Positions 25,071-32,627 of a stretch of DNA of 46,731 nucleotides are shown here, one piece after another. Numbering within the stretch: the stretch's first letter is position 1; each line of letters begins with the position of its first letter. Made by a program: the position numbers and the translations under genes. The stretch lies in the IMG/VR virus record IMGVR_UViG_2529292726_000019; one strand, written 5' to 3'. The DNA is from a virus. Taxonomy: Duplodnaviria; Heunggongvirae; Uroviricota; Caudoviricetes. Under the pieces are notes generated by a model. It ran no database searches. It had not been told where the DNA came from and saw nothing but the letters and a program-made list of their open reading frames with translations.

Positions 25071-26144
25071 TTACTCTTCTACTGACTCGGTTGGGTTGTC
25101 TTTTGCTCTTCGGTCGTCGATTGCCTGCAAAGCCGCAATGATTTCAGCCAGTGGCTTCTCCCGATACATCTCGACGATCTGCGATTTGGTGTATTTCTTG
25201 TCACCAATTTCAACTCGCCCGCTGGCGTTCTTTGGCAGGTATCCTTCTTCCAGCATGTACTCGACGAGCGATTCGATAACGTCGAGGCCACGAGTAGGAT
25301 CGAAGTAGAATTTCCAGGTGCATTTGCCATACGGTGGTGCAACTTTGTTTTTGATGCATTCTGCGCCTACGTCCTGGCCGATCTTCTCTTTACCATCCTT
25401 CATCACCGATGCACCAAGACGGATACGTACAGAAGCGTAGAACTTCGGTGAATCTCCACCTGGCGACGTAGTAGGGTCGCCAAACATTACACCGATTTTT
25501 GTGCGAACCTGATTCAAGAAGATGATGCAGGCGTTGTATTTGCGTGCCCACAAAGCCAGAGTAGGGAAGTTCGCACTTGTCGCACGAGCCAGTGCCGTAT
25601 TGTCGTTCATGTTCAGCTGATCTTTGTCTTTGGCAGTGCCTTCAGCCATCTTTTCGAACTTCTCGGCTTTGGAGTTCGGAACCATAGACGCAAGTGAGTC
25701 AGCCACGATACAGATAGGTGCTGATTCAGGAATAAGCTCTTCATCACGTACCAATTTAAGAATTGTGCCGATCAACTCTACAGAGTCTTCGAAGGTATCA
25801 GGCTGCTTGTATACCCACTGACCGTCATCCTCATCTGCGTTCAGGCCATTGGCTACAGCCAGGCCAACGTCAAAACTGTTTTCATGATCGAGGAATACCG
25901 CCAGACCATCTTGTTTTTGAGCGGAGATCATCGCTGCTGTTGCAAGGAACGTTTTCCCTGCACTTGGAGGACCGAATACTTCGACGATACGACCACATGG
26001 GAAGCCGCCATCGTAACGACCAGAAATAGCTTTGTTTAACGGTGGAAAGCCTGTATCAATCCAATGAGTTACTTTCTGAATTTCGTCGTTGCTACCGATT
26101 TTCTTTTTCAGAGCAAGTGCCAGTGCGGATTTTCCTTTTGCCAT
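25071..26144 (-). CDS. recA: RecA-like recombinase
   Basis: GGFPCGRIVEVFGPPSAGKTFLA Walker A region and RecA-like core. Confidence 0.85.
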   Translation of the reverse strand: MAKGKSALALALKKKIGSNDEIQKVTHWIDTGFPPLNKAISGRYDGGFPCGRIVEVFGPPSAGKTFLATAAMISAQKQDGLAVFLDHENSFDVGLAVANGLNADEDDGQWVYKQPDTFEDSVELIGTILKLVRDEELIPESAPICIVADSLASMVPNSKAEKFEKMAEGTAKDKDQLNMNDNTALARATSANFPTLALWARKYNACIIFLNQVRTKIGVMFGDPTTSPGGDSPKFYASVRIRLGASVMKDGKEKIGQDVGAECIKNKVAPPYGKCTWKFYFDPTRGLDVIESLVEYMLEEGYLPKNASGRVEIGDKKYTKSQIVEMYREKPLAEIIAALQAIDDRRAKDNPTESVEE

Positions 26145-26146
26145 GA

Positions 26147-29120: not shown

Positions 29121-32100
29121 TCACGTCTTAATAGTTTCTGCTACGTCGGCTAATATCGCTTCTAGTCGTTCTCCCTCTTCAGGTCTGAAGTAAAGAATGT
29201 TGGGGTTAAACCCGTAAAAGACAGTAACGTCAAGGTCTGGAAGATACTCCTTCCTGCCGACCAAATCGGATGGCTTGTTTTTGTTGTTAAACAATGAAGT
29301 TGCCCGGCTGCCACACGTCAGCACATAGGTCGGACGCACCAGATTGATCTCTTCACGCATAAAGTCGGTGAACTGGCCGATCTCGTCTTTGGTGTAGTCT
29401 TTTTCTTTGTCTTTAACCTTCTTGCAAACGCCTGTGACATAGAGATCGCCCATGCGTAAATCTCCAGCCGTCAATAGCTTGGCCTTAAAGTCGTCGTATC
29501 CGTTCTCCATGAAGTAACCGGTTCGAGCATCATTGCCGTTCGCATTGTCCAGAATGATCATGATTTTCGGCTTAATACCAATGCTGGGGCGGATTAGTTC
29601 ATCACCTAAGCCCATTTCAGCCGCCATCCGTGTCATGAGCACGTTAATCTCAGCCGAACGTTTGGGGTTCATCTCAAACGGACGTGAGGCTTTAACTGCG
29701 TCTATGACAAGGTTTCCCATCAATTCAGCCTGGTCGCGTAGGCGTTCTGGATCAGTTGCTGGCAGACTACCTGGCTCGATGGATGCAAACGCCCCTACTT
29801 TTTGCAGCGATTCGCGCACTCGACTATTACAGGCACGTTTCTCGACAGCTTCTTCGAATTGCGCCAGTGACTCGAATTTGCCGCCAACTTTTTCTCGCGC
29901 TCTCATGATGGCTTGGCAGCCATTCTCAGAACACCCCTTCACAGCAGAGAAGGGCGCATACAGCACCTGGCTGCCATCTTCAAGCGTGCGGATCTCGATT
30001 CGGTTAGATGACACGTTAACGTCTGGTGGCAATACGCGAATGCCATAGGTCAGCGCATCCTTAACCAGCCCCTGGTGCTTATCCTCGCCCAGAATGGTGA
30101 GCGCAGCAGCGAAGAACTCAGCAGGGTAATGTGTCTTTAACCACATAGACTGATAGCTGATTAAAGAATAAGCAACACTGTGTGATTTGTTGAAGGCATA
30201 TCCACCGAACTTCTCAAAGGCGTCCCATATTTCTTGGGCTTTTTCCTTACTGAGACCTTCTTGTTCAGAGACGATCTCCACGTAGTCTATGCCGTCACTA
30301 ATAGCCTCGCTGTAGCTTCTACGCTTACCGTCTGAGCAATCCAGTTTTGCGTGTTTGTGAACCTCTACAGTACCTCCATTTTTGAGTGACAGTGTCACCC
30401 AGCCTGCTTGTGCTCGTTCTACAAAATCGCTGCCGATCGCTTTCATCTTATCCATGTTCTTTTTACCGATAGCGGAACGCAGAGCGTCTGCTTCGGCCAT
30501 AGAGAACCCGGCAAGTACTCGGGAACTTTGCATGATTTGTTCCTGATAGAGCAAAACACCATTAGTCTCCCGGGTGACTTCCTCAAGACGCGGATGAATT
30601 GAATGTGGAGCCATGAAGCCTTTGGCCACGGAGACATAGTCGTCCAACATGCCGGATTGGATCGGGCCAGGTCGGAAGAGTGCGGTCGTGGCGACAACGG
30701 TTTTAAAGCTCATTGGCTCAATGCCACCGCCTAGATCTTTAAGCAGCTTGCGCATGGGGCCGGACTCCAGCTGGAATACGCCCTGTGTATACCCTGCAGC
30801 AAAACCATCCAGCACCTTGCGATCTTCAAGAGAAATGGCATCAAGATTGATATCTTCACCTGTGTTCTCTTTTATGTAGCGTTTTGCACTATCGAGCAAA
30901 TCGAGAGTTGCCAGGCCAAGCACGTCCAGCTTAATTAGGCCCATAGCCTCGCAGTAACGCTTGTCAAATGCGATACAACGCGCGTCACCACGGCGCTCAA
31001 CCGGTGTACGTTCTGTCAGAGGAACACCTGCTACGATCATCCCTGCCGCATGTCTACCAAAGCCACGCATAAGGCTTTGTAACTTGCAGGCTGCATTGAA
31101 TGCATCAGGATATTTTGTTGCGTATTTGTCGAGACTTGCCAGTTGTTCGCGCAGCTCTTCCAATGGAAGGCTATCATCCTCGACGTTCTTCAGTTCTTTT
31201 GATACCGCCATATCTGCGGACTCCACACCATAAATACGAGCGGTGTCACGTAGTGCAGAGGCTGCGCCCAGGTAGGTGAAGTTCGGAATGCCTGCAACGT
31301 AATCTTCGCCGTAGCGTTCATTCAGATACTCGATCACCTCATGGCGACGTGCCTGGCTGAAGTCCAAGTCCGCATCCGGCAAGTCGAGACGCTCAGGGTT
31401 GATGAAACGCTCAAACAGAAGACCGTGACGGATTGGGTCGACGTTGGTTATGCCTATGCACCACGCCACCAGAGAACCGGCAGAGGAACCACGACCAGGC
31501 CCGACAGGAATGCCAGTTTCACGGCTGTGATTCATCAGATCGCGTACCATCAGGAAGTAACCACAGAATCCCAGGCGAGTCAGCGTGTCCATTTCGTACT
31601 TTAGCCGCTCAACATAAACCCTGTTCTCAGAAGCAGGTGGTGTGTATCCAAACTCTTTTGTGGTAAGACGTTTACGCAGCCCTGCAACAGCCAGTTTCAT
31701 CAGCGTTGCAGGTTCGTCGTCTGCCATCTTGGGCAGTGCTGGTGGCAATTCATGCCAGCGCCATGTGCAGGCATCGATAATGGAGTCCTGCGTTGTTGAG
31801 GCCATTGCAGCTGTTACCGGCACATCCATGCGAACGGAGAAGGCTTTAAGCGCCTCAAGGAGATGGCGACGACCATTGATGGCGTTATCTCGCTGGTGGG
31901 GGATACGCAGACGATGCGGCTGGTCGATTTTTATGTTGTTCGTAACCATGTGCGCAATGTCTTTAATGTCTGCATCGTCGATCGATTCGTAATAAGCGGG
32001 ATAGAACGCTACTGGCTCTATTTTCAGTGCGCTGGCTACTTTCATCGCTCGGACGTTAATCTGGTCGTAGAATGGGGTAGGGTGCGGATAAACCACGCTA

Positions 32101-32627
32101 TAGAAGTTGTCTTTCCCGCCCGCTGTAATCAGTGAGCTTATGATTTTTGCAAAATCGTTGCGTTGGAACACGCTACCGATGTCGGAAGTGAGCAGGATGA
32201 TGTTGCCTTTGGCATATGTAGAAACCAACTGTTCGAGCGAGAGACGCGGTACAAAGTAGAACTGTTCTCGTGTGTTGGCCGCCGTCATTAGTTCGCAGAT
32301 GTCGCGATATCCTTGCTCATTTTTAATTAGAGCGGTAAACGAGTAGTTACGTCCTCGCTCTAATGATTCCATACATCTCATAGATTCTTTAGCAAGTTTA
32401 GCCCGGTGCTCGTATGTGGGATCATCAACAATGTTTAGTTTCACACCACAAATAACCGCCATGTCGTCACCAGCGGCACGTTGTAGTGGAATAACGCTCG
32501 CAATATTCATGCTATCTGCTGAAATTACAGCGGTGTAGCCAGCTTCTCTGGCAATCTTCACCGCGTTTTCTGCTTTTAGAGCCGACTCCCCAAGTGAGAA
32601 GTCAGTTCGAACCATCAGTGCCTTCAT
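29121..32627 (-). CDS. dnaE: DNA polymerase III alpha subunit (DnaE-type, family C)
   Basis: 1168 aa with GPGRGSSAGSLVAWCIGITNVDPIRHGLLFERFINPER and DLPDADLDF catalytic motifs; conserved start region. Confidence 0.9.
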   Translation of the reverse strand: MKALMVRTDFSLGESALKAENAVKIAREAGYTAVISADSMNIASVIPLQRAAGDDMAVICGVKLNIVDDPTYEHRAKLAKESMRCMESLERGRNYSFTALIKNEQGYRDICELMTAANTREQFYFVPRLSLEQLVSTYAKGNIILLTSDIGSVFQRNDFAKIISSLITAGGKDNFYSVVYPHPTPFYDQINVRAMKVASALKIEPVAFYPAYYESIDDADIKDIAHMVTNNIKIDQPHRLRIPHQRDNAINGRRHLLEALKAFSVRMDVPVTAAMASTTQDSIIDACTWRWHELPPALPKMADDEPATLMKLAVAGLRKRLTTKEFGYTPPASENRVYVERLKYEMDTLTRLGFCGYFLMVRDLMNHSRETGIPVGPGRGSSAGSLVAWCIGITNVDPIRHGLLFERFINPERLDLPDADLDFSQARRHEVIEYLNERYGEDYVAGIPNFTYLGAASALRDTARIYGVESADMAVSKELKNVEDDSLPLEELREQLASLDKYATKYPDAFNAACKLQSLMRGFGRHAAGMIVAGVPLTERTPVERRGDARCIAFDKRYCEAMGLIKLDVLGLATLDLLDSAKRYIKENTGEDINLDAISLEDRKVLDGFAAGYTQGVFQLESGPMRKLLKDLGGGIEPMSFKTVVATTALFRPGPIQSGMLDDYVSVAKGFMAPHSIHPRLEEVTRETNGVLLYQEQIMQSSRVLAGFSMAEADALRSAIGKKNMDKMKAIGSDFVERAQAGWVTLSLKNGGTVEVHKHAKLDCSDGKRRSYSEAISDGIDYVEIVSEQEGLSKEKAQEIWDAFEKFGGYAFNKSHSVAYSLISYQSMWLKTHYPAEFFAAALTILGEDKHQGLVKDALTYGIRVLPPDVNVSSNRIEIRTLEDGSQVLYAPFSAVKGCSENGCQAIMRAREKVGGKFESLAQFEEAVEKRACNSRVRESLQKVGAFASIEPGSLPATDPERLRDQAELMGNLVIDAVKASRPFEMNPKRSAEINVLMTRMAAEMGLGDELIRPSIGIKPKIMIILDNANGNDARTGYFMENGYDDFKAKLLTAGDLRMGDLYVTGVCKKVKDKEKDYTKDEIGQFTDFMREEINLVRPTYVLTCGSRATSLFNNKNKPSDLVGRKEYLPDLDVTVFYGFNPNILYFRPEEGERLEAILADVAETIKT

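What the first reader, a model, noticed from the sequence alone, without database searches (positions are those of the whole stretch)
25071..32627. Hybrid replisome: T4-like accessory proteins with a bacterial-type polymerase
A gp32-like zinc SSB with an acidic tail, a RecA/UvsX-like recombinase and a flap endonuclease sit beside a DnaE-type family C polymerase; a DnaQ-like exonuclease lies at 5673-6221 and a DnaG-like primase and ATP-dependent ligase at 42403-46299. This is not the family A or B polymerase usual in T5- or T4-like phages. No helicase or sliding clamp was recognised in this window.
Basis: partly seen in the sequence, partly recalled or inferred. Interest (0 to 1): 0.4.

Follow-up and report, generated by a model that had tools for sequence, protein, structure and literature searches.

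The report
Phage-plasmid replication module with DnaE polymerase
The region is the DNA replication and recombination gene set of a well-known SSU5-type phage-plasmid of E. coli; its mix of a bacterial-type polymerase with T4-type helper proteins is real, but it is already sequenced, annotated and partly described.

Summary

The window is 100% identical to E. coli plasmid p503046_111 and 97-99% identical to phage-plasmid Cyrano (pLF82). It is an SSU5/pHCM2-like phage-plasmid.

The DnaE is not host cargo. It is 29.5% identical to E. coli DnaE and 36-39% identical to DnaEs of Rhizobium, Pseudomonas and Stenotrophomonas siphophages. Those phages carry the same module in the same gene order.

- The 151-aa ORF between DnaE and gp32 has the T4 UvsY fold.
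- The DnaE C-terminus is a degenerate family-4 UDG domain in place of the OB and tau-binding domains. This was published in 2014.
- A DnaB-like helicase lies just past the right edge, behind an IS21 insertion.
- The recombinase and the nuclease are bacterial-type, not T4-type.

No clamp or clamp loader was found. A conserved Q-x-E-L-[LM] motif suggests the host beta clamp is used, but that is inference.

Verdict: already known; modest interest.

The parts
29121..32627 (-). DnaE-type (family C) DNA polymerase, 1168 aa: PHP, palm/thumb/fingers, (HhH)2 domain and a UDG-like C-terminal domain
   Evidence: Pfam PHP, DNA_pol3_alpha, DNA_pol3_finger and HHH_6. NCBIfam TIGR00594 scores 655 bits, above its 434 cut-off, but every equivalog cut-off is failed. 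Homology to Taq and E. coli alpha ends near residue 949. The catalytic PDxDxDF and FDK motifs are kept; the PHP His motif is lost.
29124..29780 (-). C-terminal family-4 UDG-like domain of DnaE (residues 950-1168), with degenerate catalytic motifs
   Evidence: A profile of 5 homologues hits UDG structures 4zbx (1.4e-16), 1vk2, 1l9g and 1ui0. NCBIfam UDG_fam4 2.9e-7. Pfam UDG 0.001, below cut-off. GEAPG is replaced by DNANG, the uracil-binding Asn by Gly, and the HPS His by Asn.
29706..29744 (-). Conserved linker motif RLRDQAELMGNLV (residues 962-974); candidate beta-clamp-binding motif
   Evidence: Among 78 representatives clustered at 50% identity or less: R 73/78, Q 69/78, L 60/78, [LM] 63/78, P 64/78, with variable flanks. 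It lies between the (HhH)2 domain and the C-terminal domain, the same topological place as E. coli alpha QADMF. The function is inferred.
30267..30413 (-). Lineage-specific 47-aa insertion in DnaE (residues 739-787), at the point where relatives have the gene split in two
   Evidence: Absent from the Rhizobium, Pseudomonas and Stenotrophomonas phage DnaEs and from E. coli DnaE. It equals the tail of the 790-aa N-half joined to the head of the 386-aa C-half in L013.
28564..29019 (-). UvsY-fold recombination mediator (151-aa ORF; most homologues are 143 aa)
   Evidence: AlphaFold2 pLDDT 90.4. The top 19 Foldseek PDB hits are all T4 UvsY, target-normalised TM 0.74-0.93. PHROG UvsY-like 1.2e-4. 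Homologues sit in the same position in three phage groups.
27418..28446 (-). gp32-type zinc single-stranded-DNA-binding protein with Ala/Ser/Thr-rich linker and acidic C-terminal tip
   Evidence: Pfam gp32 1.7e-66. H56/C74/C83/C86 and the tip motif hDDhLxxL are conserved across lineages.
26413..27408 (-). Pol I-type 5'-3' exonuclease / flap endonuclease
   Evidence: Pfam 5_3_exonuc_N 1e-23 and 5_3_exonuc 5e-12. The best NCBIfam hits are the Pol I N-terminal region.
26147..26419 (-). Small conserved ORF of unknown function (90 aa) between the nuclease and RecA genes
   Evidence: phrog_2207 5.1e-54, no annotated function. An 86-aa gene occupies the same place in L013.
25071..26144 (-). RecA-type recombinase (357 aa, no insertion)
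   Evidence: Pfam RecA 2.2e-42. PDB RecA chains score 112-124 bits against 27.8 bits for T4 UvsX. Below the NCBIfam RecA equivalog cut-off (153.7 vs 325.3).
32808..34043 (-). CobS-like AAA_5 (MoxR-type) ATPase, conserved upstream neighbour of dnaE; role unknown
   Evidence: Pfam AAA_5 5e-14. NCBIfam CobS 86.7 bits against a 558 cut-off. Same position in three phage groups.
34139..36247 (-). CobT-like VWA protein, partner of the CobS-like ATPase; role unknown
   Evidence: Pfam CobT_C 1e-81 and CobT 2.4e-27. NCBIfam CobT 68 bits against a 759 cut-off. Syntenic in three phage groups.
42403..43725 (-). ATP-dependent DNA ligase
   Evidence: Pfam DNA_ligase_A_M 5.8e-13. Homologues in the same position in three phage groups.
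45118..46371 (-). DnaG/Toprim-type primase. The ORF runs up to the IS boundary; the real start is probably near 46233, as in Cyrano.
   Evidence: PHROG DNA primase 3.8e-65. TIGR dnaG 2.7e-9. 39-41% identical to the primases of three phage groups. CxxC...C zinc motif. The Cyrano CDS is 1116 nt.
46437..46731 (-). 3' end of istB of an IS21-family insertion that separates the primase gene from the DnaB-like helicase gene
   Evidence: Translation. Full istB matches Pfam IstB_IS21 at 9.5e-62. Homology to relatives stops at 46371. Helicase at L004 3141-4481.
5673..6221 (-). DnaQ-like DEDDh 3'-5' exonuclease (182 aa), the likely proofreader
   Evidence: Pfam RNase_T 1.3e-22. Motifs DIE, HNGEAFD and HSALYD are present. 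In the phage collection it occurs almost only (31 of 36 records) in the phage groups that carry this DnaE.
2337..3011 (-). RNase H (type HI)
   Evidence: Pfam RNase_H 1e-44.
14895..15464 (-). RuvC-like Holliday junction resolvase
   Evidence: phrog_159 3e-57. Homologues in RHEph10 and nickie.
16207..19438 (-). SbcC-like (16207-18123) and SbcD-like (18353-19438) nuclease pair with a 92-aa ORF between them
   Evidence: Pfam AAA_23 and SMC_N; Metallophos. 36-40% identical to homologues in three phage groups.
20533..22285 (+). Plasmid-mode replicon: Rep3-family RepA (ORF 20539-21753) flanked by at least 13 iterons GTATGCTGTCAGCGGT
   Evidence: Pfam Rep3_N 5.2e-9. Iteron families D1-D3 at 20533-20638 and 21749-22285.

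Best explanation
The region is the phage-mode DNA replication and recombination module of an SSU5/pHCM2-like temperate phage-plasmid. Shown: it encodes a family C polymerase whose OB and tau-binding domains are replaced by a degenerate UDG-like domain. It also encodes a free-standing DnaQ-like DEDDh exonuclease that occurs in the same phage groups as this polymerase, and a DnaG-like primase, with a DnaB-family helicase just outside the window. The recombination and end-processing genes are a gp32-type zinc SSB, a UvsY-fold mediator, a RecA-type recombinase, SbcCD and RuvC. The Okazaki-processing genes are a Pol I-type 5' nuclease, RNase H and an ATP ligase. The set is collinear with that of distant lytic-type siphophages. 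Inferred: during lysogeny the element replicates as a low-copy plasmid from its RepA/iteron origin using the host replisome. After induction it switches to its own replisome. In that mode DnaB-like helicase and primase would open and prime the fork, and DnaE-UDG with the DnaQ-like proofreader would synthesise DNA. gp32 would coat single strands, and UvsY would load the RecA-type recombinase on gp32-coated DNA to start recombination-dependent replication that yields concatemers for packaging. Because no clamp or clamp loader is encoded, the polymerase probably borrows the host beta clamp through the conserved linker motif R-x-[KR]-D-Q-x-E-L-[LM]-P-G. Having no tau-binding domain, it would not join the host Pol III holoenzyme through tau.
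For: Identity of the element: 100% identical to plasmid CP025888.1, 97-99% to Cyrano and CMS-2020a, about 80% nucleotide identity to SSU5. Cyrano makes virions, is induced by ciprofloxacin and is kept at 5.5 copies per cell (PMC9928086). Gene assignments. UvsY fold. RecA-type recombinase. UDG-like domain; PMC3919608. Not host-derived: 29.5% identity to E. coli DnaE against 36-39% to phage DnaEs, within a collinear module of helicase, primase, ligase, CobT, CobS, DnaE, UvsY-like, gp32-like, nuclease, RecA, SbcD, SbcC, RuvC, RNR and ThyA in RHEph10, nickie and ANB28. Polymerase-proofreader pairing: the DnaQ-like gene has the same phage distribution as this DnaE, and the PHP His motif is lost. 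No clamp or loader: none among 126 Cyrano features; no Pfam clamp or loader hit in about 60 proteins scanned; no DnaN by tblastn in the whole plasmid. Candidate clamp motif: conserved in 60-73 of 78 diverse homologues with variable flanks. Plasmid mode: Rep3 RepA with at least 13 iterons.
Against: Nothing here is biochemical. Use of the host clamp rests on a short motif only, and MAFFT did not place it in the same column as E. coli QADMF. The motif could simply be a structural linker. Whether the module acts only in the lytic cycle was not tested. RHEph10 carries a repC-like gene inside the same module, so plasmid and phage modes may be more entangled than stated. In this particular plasmid an IS21 element separates helicase from primase, so this copy may be impaired. 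The DnaQ-like protein lacks the C-terminal segment by which E. coli epsilon binds alpha, so its contact with DnaE is unknown. A very divergent clamp among the unassigned ORFs cannot be excluded; the one model made for this purpose had pLDDT 50.8.
Confidence: 0.75

Rival explanations
1. The polymerase works without any sliding clamp. Processivity would come from coupling to the DnaB-like helicase or from the UDG-like domain acting as a DNA-binding processivity module, much as vaccinia UDG D4 with A20 serves the poxvirus polymerase. The conserved Q-x-E-L-[LM] motif would then be a structural or intramolecular element.
For: No clamp or clamp loader was found. The UDG-like domain is conserved as a fold while all its catalytic motifs have decayed, which points to a non-enzymatic role. 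The (HhH)2 plus UDG module can be a separate polypeptide. The vaccinia D4/A20 precedent is cited in PMC4889955.
Against: The motif fits the Q-x-x-[LM]-[FLM] pattern of beta-binding motifs (my knowledge of the family). It sits at the same topological position as the internal motif of E. coli alpha, and it is the best conserved feature of an otherwise variable linker.
Confidence: 0.3
2. The module mainly serves plasmid maintenance during lysogeny (copying or repairing the roughly 110-kb episome) rather than lytic replication.
For: The RepA/iteron origin lies in the middle of these genes. A repC-like gene lies inside the homologous module of RHEph10.
Against: Iteron/Rep3 plasmids use the host replisome (established knowledge). 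The same module occurs in nickie and ANB28, where no plasmid initiator is annotated in the 43-kb regions examined. In LF82 transcriptomes the Cyrano genes expressed above background in lysogens were the repressor, toxin-antitoxin genes and a few hypothetical genes, not the replication genes (table quoted).
Confidence: 0.1
3. The DnaE is a host-derived cargo gene, or a DnaE2-like error-prone polymerase, carried by the plasmid and unrelated to phage replication.
For: Family C polymerases are rare in phages and some are thought to be lateral transfers from bacteria (PMC3919608 introduction). An NCBIfam 'error-prone DNA polymerase' hit exists at 413 bits.
Against: Only 29.5% identical to E. coli DnaE, and closer (36-39%) to phage DnaEs that share its unusual UDG-like C-terminus and its gene neighbourhood. 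The DnaE1 model scores higher (701.7 bits) than the DnaE2 model (413 bits), and both are below cut-off. The gene is at least 87.9% conserved in protein sequence across SSU5-like elements of four host genera.
Confidence: 0.03

Closest known systems
Salmonella phage SSU5 / pHCM2 / Escherichia phage Cyrano (pLF82): the SSU5 supercommunity of phage-plasmids
   Same: Same element type and gene order. The window is 100% identical to plasmid p503046_111, 97-99% to Cyrano and CMS-2020a, and about 80% (nucleotide) to SSU5. Cyrano is annotated with the same DnaE, gp32-like SSB, UvsY, exonuclease, RecA, primase, ligase, Pol III epsilon-like exonuclease and RepA.
   Different: This copy has an IS21-family insertion between the helicase and primase genes and an extra HNH endonuclease ORF at 6218-7012. 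It lacks the insertion that makes Cyrano RecA 780 aa long, and it lacks the HicAB genes next to dnaE.
DnaE variant with a UDG domain in place of the OB and C-terminal domains (the 'DnaEX' class of Timinskas et al. 2014, PMC3919608)
   Same: Exactly this architecture: PHP, Pol3 core, (HhH)2, then a PF03167-type domain. It was reported as an extra polymerase in some Yersinia pestis and Salmonella enterica strains.
   Different: The paper treats it as a bacterial oddity. Here it is shown to be the polymerase of a conserved phage module, found in at least 43 full-length and 37 split representatives at the 50% clustering level. All UDG catalytic motifs are degenerate.
Replication modules of Rhizobium phage RHEph10, Pseudomonas phage nickie (Nickievirus) and Stenotrophomonas phage ANB28
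   Same: A collinear set of helicase, primase, ligase, CobT, CobS, DnaE-UDG, UvsY-like, gp32-like, 5' nuclease, RecA, SbcD, SbcC, RuvC, RNR and ThyA, plus the DnaQ-like exonuclease.
   Different: Only 22-48% protein identity. Their DnaE lacks the 47-aa insertion. Hosts and lifestyles differ. No Rep3/iteron plasmid origin is annotated in the regions examined.
Bacteriophage T4 replication and recombination system (gp32, UvsX, UvsY, gp46/47, gp43, gp45, gp44/62, gp41, gp61, RNase H)
   Same: gp32-family zinc SSB with an acidic tail, a UvsY-fold mediator, an SbcCD-type nuclease pair and (in Cyrano, outside the window) a gene annotated UvsW helicase. This toolkit would support recombination-dependent replication.
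   Different: The polymerase is family C, not family B gp43. No gp45 clamp or gp44/62 loader was found. The recombinase is RecA-type rather than UvsX-type. The helicase is DnaB-family by Pfam and NCBIfam, and the nuclease is Pol I-type.
E. coli DNA polymerase III core (alpha and epsilon) with beta clamp and tau complex
   Same: PHP, palm with conserved catalytic aspartates, fingers and (HhH)2 domains. A separate DEDDh proofreader. An inactive-looking PHP domain as in E. coli. A Q-x-x-[LM]-type motif after the (HhH)2 domain.
   Different: No OB fold and no tau-binding domain. The proofreader lacks the C-terminal alpha-binding segment and the clamp motif of epsilon. No beta, tau/gamma, delta or delta' genes are present. 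All NCBIfam equivalog cut-offs are failed.

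Membership tests
SSU5/pHCM2-like phage-plasmids | Genome-level similarity to SSU5-group elements | tested here: met
   megablast: 97.4% identity over 95% of 24.7 kb to Cyrano; 79.7% over 65% to SSU5; 165 plasmids cover at least 80% of the query.
SSU5/pHCM2-like phage-plasmids | Plasmid replication initiator and origin | tested here: met
   Rep3-family RepA at 20539-21753 with at least 13 flanking iterons. PLSDB types the source as a circular 112-kb plasmid, rep_cluster_488.
SSU5/pHCM2-like phage-plasmids | Complete siphovirus structural, packaging and lysis genes, and a partition system | not tested
   These lie outside the window. They are annotated in the 97-99% identical relative Cyrano (terminase to tail fibre, holin/endolysin, ParA/ParB). 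The rest of CP025888.1 was fetched (L004, L005) but not annotated gene by gene.
Family C DNA polymerase, DnaE type | PHP, Pol3 core (palm/thumb/fingers) and (HhH)2 domains | tested here: met
   All four Pfam domains score above their cut-offs. TIGR00594 scores 655 bits against a 434 cut-off.
Family C DNA polymerase, DnaE type | Catalytic aspartates of the palm | tested here: met
   LPDADLDF and AFDK align with E. coli MPDFDVDF and QFDK.
Family C DNA polymerase, DnaE type | C-terminal OB fold and tau-binding domain (DnaE1 architecture) | tested here: not met
   Homology to Taq and E. coli alpha ends near residue 949. The remaining 220 residues match family-4 UDG. Every NCBIfam DnaE equivalog cut-off is failed.
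Family C DNA polymerase, DnaE type | Beta-clamp-binding motif | tested here: inconclusive
   A conserved R-x-[KR]-D-Q-x-E-L-[LM]-P-G motif lies at the expected place. Binding was not tested and the motif is not column-aligned with QADMF.
Family 4 uracil-DNA glycosylase | Homology to the UDG superfamily domain | tested here: met
   Profile against PDB sequences: 4zbx 1.4e-16, 1vk2 8.2e-13, 1ui0 3.6e-12. No structure was predicted for this domain, so the match is at sequence-profile level only.
Family 4 uracil-DNA glycosylase | Catalytic motif A (GEAPG), uracil-recognising Asn, motif B His (HPS) and the Fe-S cysteines | tested here: not met
   Motif A reads DNANG, DAPNN, DGPSY or DAATK. The Asn is replaced by G, A or S. 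The His is replaced by Asn. The KC(R)P cysteine is absent. The canonical motifs are taken from the aligned PDB sequences and from my knowledge of the family.
T4 gp32 SSB family | gp32 DNA-binding core | tested here: met
   Pfam PF08804 1.7e-66, covering profile positions 1-208 of 208. phmmer against PDB sequences found nothing.
T4 gp32 SSB family | Zinc ligands (His plus 3 Cys) and an acidic C-terminal domain | tested here: met
   H56, C74, C83 and C86 are conserved in 4 of 5 lineages. The tail has 7 acidic and 1 basic residue in its last 25, with a conserved hDDhLxxL tip. Metal binding itself is not testable here.
T4 UvsY recombination mediator | UvsY fold | tested here: met
   AlphaFold2 pLDDT 90.4, pTM 0.76. 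The top 19 Foldseek hits are all UvsY chains, target-normalised TM 0.74-0.93, rmsd 1.3-5.6 A.
T4 UvsY recombination mediator | Sequence-family membership | tested here: inconclusive
   PHROG UvsY-like 1.2e-4. No Pfam hit. No PDB hit with a 4-sequence profile.
T4 UvsY recombination mediator | Oligomeric ring that loads the recombinase on gp32-coated ssDNA | not testable with these tools
   This needs biochemistry.
RecA (bacterial) versus UvsX (T4) | Closer to RecA than to UvsX | tested here: met
   RecA chains score 112-124 bits (E about 1e-31 to 1e-35). UvsX chains score 27.8-43.8 bits. Pfam RecA 2.2e-42. The protein still falls below the NCBIfam RecA equivalog cut-off (153.7 vs 325.3).
DNA polymerase III epsilon (DnaQ) | DEDDh exonuclease motifs | tested here: met
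   Exo I DIE, Exo II HNGEAFD and Exo III HSALYD were read in the translation. Pfam RNase_T 1.3e-22.
DNA polymerase III epsilon (DnaQ) | C-terminal alpha-binding segment and clamp motif; equivalog score | tested here: not met
   The protein ends at residue 182, right after the exonuclease domain. It scores 77 bits against a 196 cut-off, and 59 against 71.5 for TIGR00573.
T4-type replisome | Family B polymerase gp43, gp45 clamp and gp44/62 clamp loader | tested here: not met
   The polymerase is family C. No clamp or loader appears in the Cyrano annotation or in Pfam scans of about 60 proteins.
Aerobic cobaltochelatase CobS/CobT | Equivalog-level similarity | tested here: not met
   CobS scores 86.7 bits against 558.55; CobT scores 68.2 against 759.05. 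Only the AAA_5 and VWA/CobT domain families match.

The most novel reading that the evidence does not exclude
This phage clade may have built a minimal family C replicase that works independently of the tau complex. It would consist of a DnaE whose OB and tau-binding domains were swapped for a catalytically dead UDG-fold domain, used as a DNA-binding, processivity or uracil-sensing module (analogous to vaccinia D4). It would be paired with a tail-less DnaQ-type proofreader, would take over the host beta clamp through a conserved Q-x-E-L-[LM] motif, and would be coupled to a T4-type gp32/UvsY system that loads a RecA-type (not UvsX-type) recombinase. The invariably adjacent CobS/CobT-like AAA+/VWA pair might be an unrecognised replisome assembly or loading factor.
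Probability: 0.3. Interest if true: 0.55.

Novelty: already known. Interest (0 to 1): 0.3.

Why it matters
SSU5-like phage-plasmids are the largest known group of related phage-plasmids in Enterobacteriaceae (PMC7969092) and carry resistance genes (PMC9600943). How they switch from plasmid-mode to phage-mode replication is therefore of practical interest. The module shows how a family C polymerase can operate outside the bacterial holoenzyme, with no tau, no own clamp or loader, and a T4-type SSB and mediator. If the host-clamp motif and the role of the dead UDG domain were confirmed, they would give a simple model of replisome mixing and of host-factor capture. As a scan finding, however, it re-describes annotated, published sequence.

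Tried and rejected
1. Hidden clamp among unassigned ORFs. Pfam at E up to 10 gave nothing clamp-like for 44260-45042, 43722-44204, 15474-16217, 4703-5512, 7022-7441 and 6218-7012; PHROGs list them as unknown or HNH. The AlphaFold2 model of the 260-aa ORF was poor (pLDDT 50.8) and mostly helical. I did not run a fold search on it because the result would be meaningless.

2. Twenty further Cyrano proteins outside the window gave no clamp or clamp-loader family. tblastn with E. coli DnaN against the whole plasmid, Cyrano and the three phage regions gave no hit better than E = 3.6. The same query against the phage collection did not settle the question for the distant phages.

3. The word-indexed homologue search with the UDG-like domain returned only 6 proteins. 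The exhaustive representative search was needed.

4. The PDB sequence search for gp32 was negative, and so was the UvsY-like profile search. UvsY was settled only by fold comparison.

5. I considered that the roughly 390-aa C-terminal 'halves' might carry a split intein, as cyanobacterial DnaE does. Their N-termini align directly with DnaE sequence, with no intein segment. P0001 (374 aa) is probably a contig-edge fragment.

6. I considered that CobS/CobT might be specific to DnaE phages. CobS-like genes occur in 786 phage records, mostly cyanophages and Staphylococcus or Listeria myophages, so they are not specific.

7. Literature searches for a functional study of this replisome found none in the held library.

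Full report
**What is in the window**

Almost all long ORFs lie on the minus strand.
- RecA, 25071-26144.
- 5'-3' exonuclease/FEN, 26413-27408.
- gp32-family SSB, 27418-28446.
- A 1168-aa DnaE with PHP, Pol3 core, finger and HhH domains, 29121-32627 (all).
- A DEDDh DnaQ-like exonuclease, 5673-6221.
- An ATP-dependent ligase, 42403-43725.
- A Toprim/DnaG-type primase, 45118-46371.

The gp32-like protein has His56, Cys74, Cys83 and Cys86 where T4 gp32 has its zinc ligands. These residues are conserved in four of five lineages compared. The protein ends in an Ala/Ser/Thr-rich linker and an acidic tip whose motif hDDhLxxL is also conserved.

**Where the sequence comes from**

The window is 100% identical to E. 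coli plasmid p503046_111 (CP025888.1, 112 kb, circular). It is 97-99% identical to Escherichia phage CMS-2020a and to phage-plasmid Cyrano (pLF82), and about 80% identical at nucleotide level to Salmonella phage SSU5. It belongs to the SSU5 supercommunity, the largest set of related phage-plasmids (PMC7969092). Cyrano forms siphovirus particles, is induced by ciprofloxacin and is kept at about 5.5 copies per cell (PMC9928086). The deposited Cyrano annotation already lists DNA polymerase III alpha, 'SSB T4 gp32-like', 'UvsY recombination mediator', exonuclease, RecA, primase, ligase, 'Pol III subunit epsilon', SbcCD, RuvC, a DNA helicase next to the primase, and a UvsW helicase. The gene content is already known.

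1. The 151-aa ORF at 28564-29019 gives no Pfam hit and only a weak PHROG UvsY hit (1.2e-4). A 16-sequence alignment gave a confident model (pLDDT 90.4). Its 19 best PDB matches are all T4 UvsY chains, with target-normalised TM 0.74-0.93.
2. The recombinase is RecA-type. It scores 112-124 bits against bacterial RecA structures and 27.8 bits against T4 UvsX.
3. The nuclease is the Pol I/T5-type 5' nuclease.
4. The last 295 bases of the window are the 3' end of istB of an IS21-family element. This element is inserted between the primase gene and a DnaB-family helicase gene that lies just outside the window. Homology to all relatives stops exactly at 46371.
5. The window also holds RNase H (2337-3011), a RuvC-like resolvase, SbcCD, ribonucleotide reductase, thymidylate synthase and DHFR.
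6. A Rep3-family RepA is flanked by at least 13 copies of the iteron GTATGCTGTCAGCGGT. This is the plasmid-mode origin.

**The polymerase**

Similarity to Thermus and E. coli alpha subunits stops near residue 949. A profile of the last roughly 220 residues from five homologues matches family-4 uracil-DNA glycosylase structures (4zbx 1.4e-16; 1vk2, 1l9g, 1ui0). NCBIfam reports UDG_fam4 at 2.9e-7. This architecture, with OB and C-terminal domains replaced by an archaeal-type UDG, was described by Timinskas et al. 2014 for extra polymerases of some Yersinia pestis and Salmonella strains (PMC3919608).

All UDG signature positions are degenerate and differ between lineages. GEAPG becomes DNANG, DAPNN, DGPSY or DAATK. 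The uracil-contacting Asn becomes Gly, Ala or Ser. The motif-B His becomes Asn. I infer a glycosylase-dead domain that is kept for another role. The palm aspartates are intact, and the PHP histidine motif is lost, as in E. coli.

An exhaustive search found this domain in 147 representatives clustered at 50% identity. Of these, 43 are full-length (about 1080-1170 aa) and 37 are roughly 390-aa 'halves'. In an SSU5-like relative, dnaE really is two adjacent genes of 790 and 386 aa. The 47-aa insertion specific to the window's DnaE (residues 739-787) is the junction of those halves.

**Host cargo or phage gene?**

The DnaE is 29.5% identical to E. coli DnaE and 36-39% identical to the DnaEs of Rhizobium phage RHEph10, Pseudomonas phage nickie and Stenotrophomonas phage ANB28. 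All three share the UDG-like end. These phages carry the same genes in the same order: helicase, primase, ligase, CobT, CobS, DnaE, UvsY-like, gp32-like, 5' nuclease, RecA, SbcD, SbcC, RuvC, RNR and ThyA. In the phage collection the DnaQ-like exonuclease is found almost only (31 of 36 records) in these same groups, which argues for a polymerase-proofreader pair.

**Clamp and clamp loader**

- None is annotated among Cyrano's 126 features.
- No clamp or loader family appears in Pfam scans of about 60 proteins.
- E. coli DnaN finds nothing by tblastn in the whole plasmid.
- The one structure prediction aimed at a candidate (the 260-aa ORF between primase and ligase) was of low confidence and mostly helical.

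The linker between the HhH domain and the UDG-like domain holds the best conserved short motif of the region, R-x-[KR]-D-Q-x-E-L-[LM]-P-G. In 78 diverse homologues Q occurs 69 times, L 60 times and [LM] 63 times. It lies at the place where E. coli alpha has its internal beta-binding motif QADMF. I infer that the polymerase borrows the host beta clamp. This inference is not tested. The main rival is clamp-independent processivity through the helicase or the UDG-like domain.

**Most likely mechanism**

Shown: the gene set and its phage ancestry.

Inferred:
- In lysogeny, the element replicates from the RepA/iteron origin with the host replisome.
- After induction, the phage replisome takes over: DnaB-like helicase, primase, DnaE-UDG, DnaQ-like proofreader and gp32.
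- UvsY loads the RecA-type recombinase on gp32-coated DNA for recombination-dependent initiation.
- SbcCD and RuvC process ends and junctions.
- The 5' nuclease, RNase H and ligase mature Okazaki fragments.

**Verdict**

The finding is an accurate reading of a mixed-ancestry replication module, but the element, its annotation and the unusual DnaE architecture are all in the public record. No functional study of this replisome turned up in the held library, so its mechanistic questions remain open. Novelty: already known. Interest: about 0.3.

Noticed in passing
window 46372-46731 (continues in L004 to about position 3100): An IS21-family insertion sequence (istA 499 aa, istB 251 aa; IstB_IS21 9.5e-62) sits in the intergenic space between the primase gene and the DnaB-like helicase gene. 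Relatives lack it. It may uncouple the two genes in this plasmid.
   Followed up: partly
window 30267-30413 (DnaE residues 739-787); L013 5558-9161: dnaE is a single ORF here but two adjacent genes (790 aa and 386 aa, 70 bp apart) in an SSU5-like relative. 37 of 147 representatives at 50% identity are such C-terminal halves. The window's 47-aa insertion is the fused junction. Klebsiella relatives carry about 735 extra bp inside dnaE.
   Followed up: partly
window 6218-7012: An HNH homing-endonuclease-like ORF (phrog_374, 2.1e-79) lies next to the DnaQ-like gene and is absent from Cyrano. The neighbouring DnaQ-like gene is 93% identical to Klebsiella phage versions but only about 79% to other E. 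coli elements, which suggests local mosaicism. Conversely, Cyrano RecA is 780 aa because of an insertion, while RecA here is 357 aa.
   Followed up: partly
window 20533-20638 and 21749-22285, flanking repA at 20539-21753 (+): At least 13 iterons (GTATGCTGTCAGCGGT) lie on both sides of a Rep3-family repA. The layout resembles phage P1 oriR/incA and is embedded among the phage replication genes. The upstream iterons overlap the start of the listed ORF, so the real start is probably further downstream (the Cyrano RepA CDS is 1056 nt).
   Followed up: partly
window 32808-36247: A CobS-like AAA_5 ATPase and a CobT-like VWA protein sit immediately upstream of dnaE in all four distant phage groups. 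Both score far below the NCBIfam cobaltochelatase cut-offs. Their role in a replication module is unexplained. CobS-like genes alone are widespread in phages (786 records).
   Followed up: partly
L004 4525-5274 (about 3.5 kb beyond the right edge of the window): A protein of about 240 aa with no Pfam hit precedes the helicase gene in SSU5-like, Rhizobium, Pseudomonas and Stenotrophomonas phages (24-32% identity). It may be a helicase loader or an origin-binding protein.
   Followed up: partly
window 40116-40813: Four tRNA genes (Ser-TGA, Thr-TGT, Tyr-GTA, Asn-GTT). This block is 87-89% identical to tRNA clusters of phages P7, D6 and related P1-like elements.
   Followed up: no
window 9035-10165: The thymidylate-synthase homologue is 376 aa, and the Pfam domain is matched in two stretches, which points to an insertion. 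Cyrano labels it ThyX, but the Pfam family is ThyA-type. Whether it makes dTMP or a modified pyrimidine was not examined.
   Followed up: no
window 36810-38294: A tyrosine recombinase (Phage_integrase, 6.8e-10) and a divergent HTH repressor-like gene lie between the CobT-like gene and the tRNA block of an element that is maintained as a plasmid. The recombinase may resolve multimers rather than integrate.
   Followed up: no
window 27418-27470 (C-terminal tip of the gp32-like protein): The acidic tip carries a motif hDDhLxxL that is conserved in five lineages sharing only 22-31% identity elsewhere. It is likely a protein-docking tip, analogous to the SSB C-terminal peptide.
   Followed up: partly
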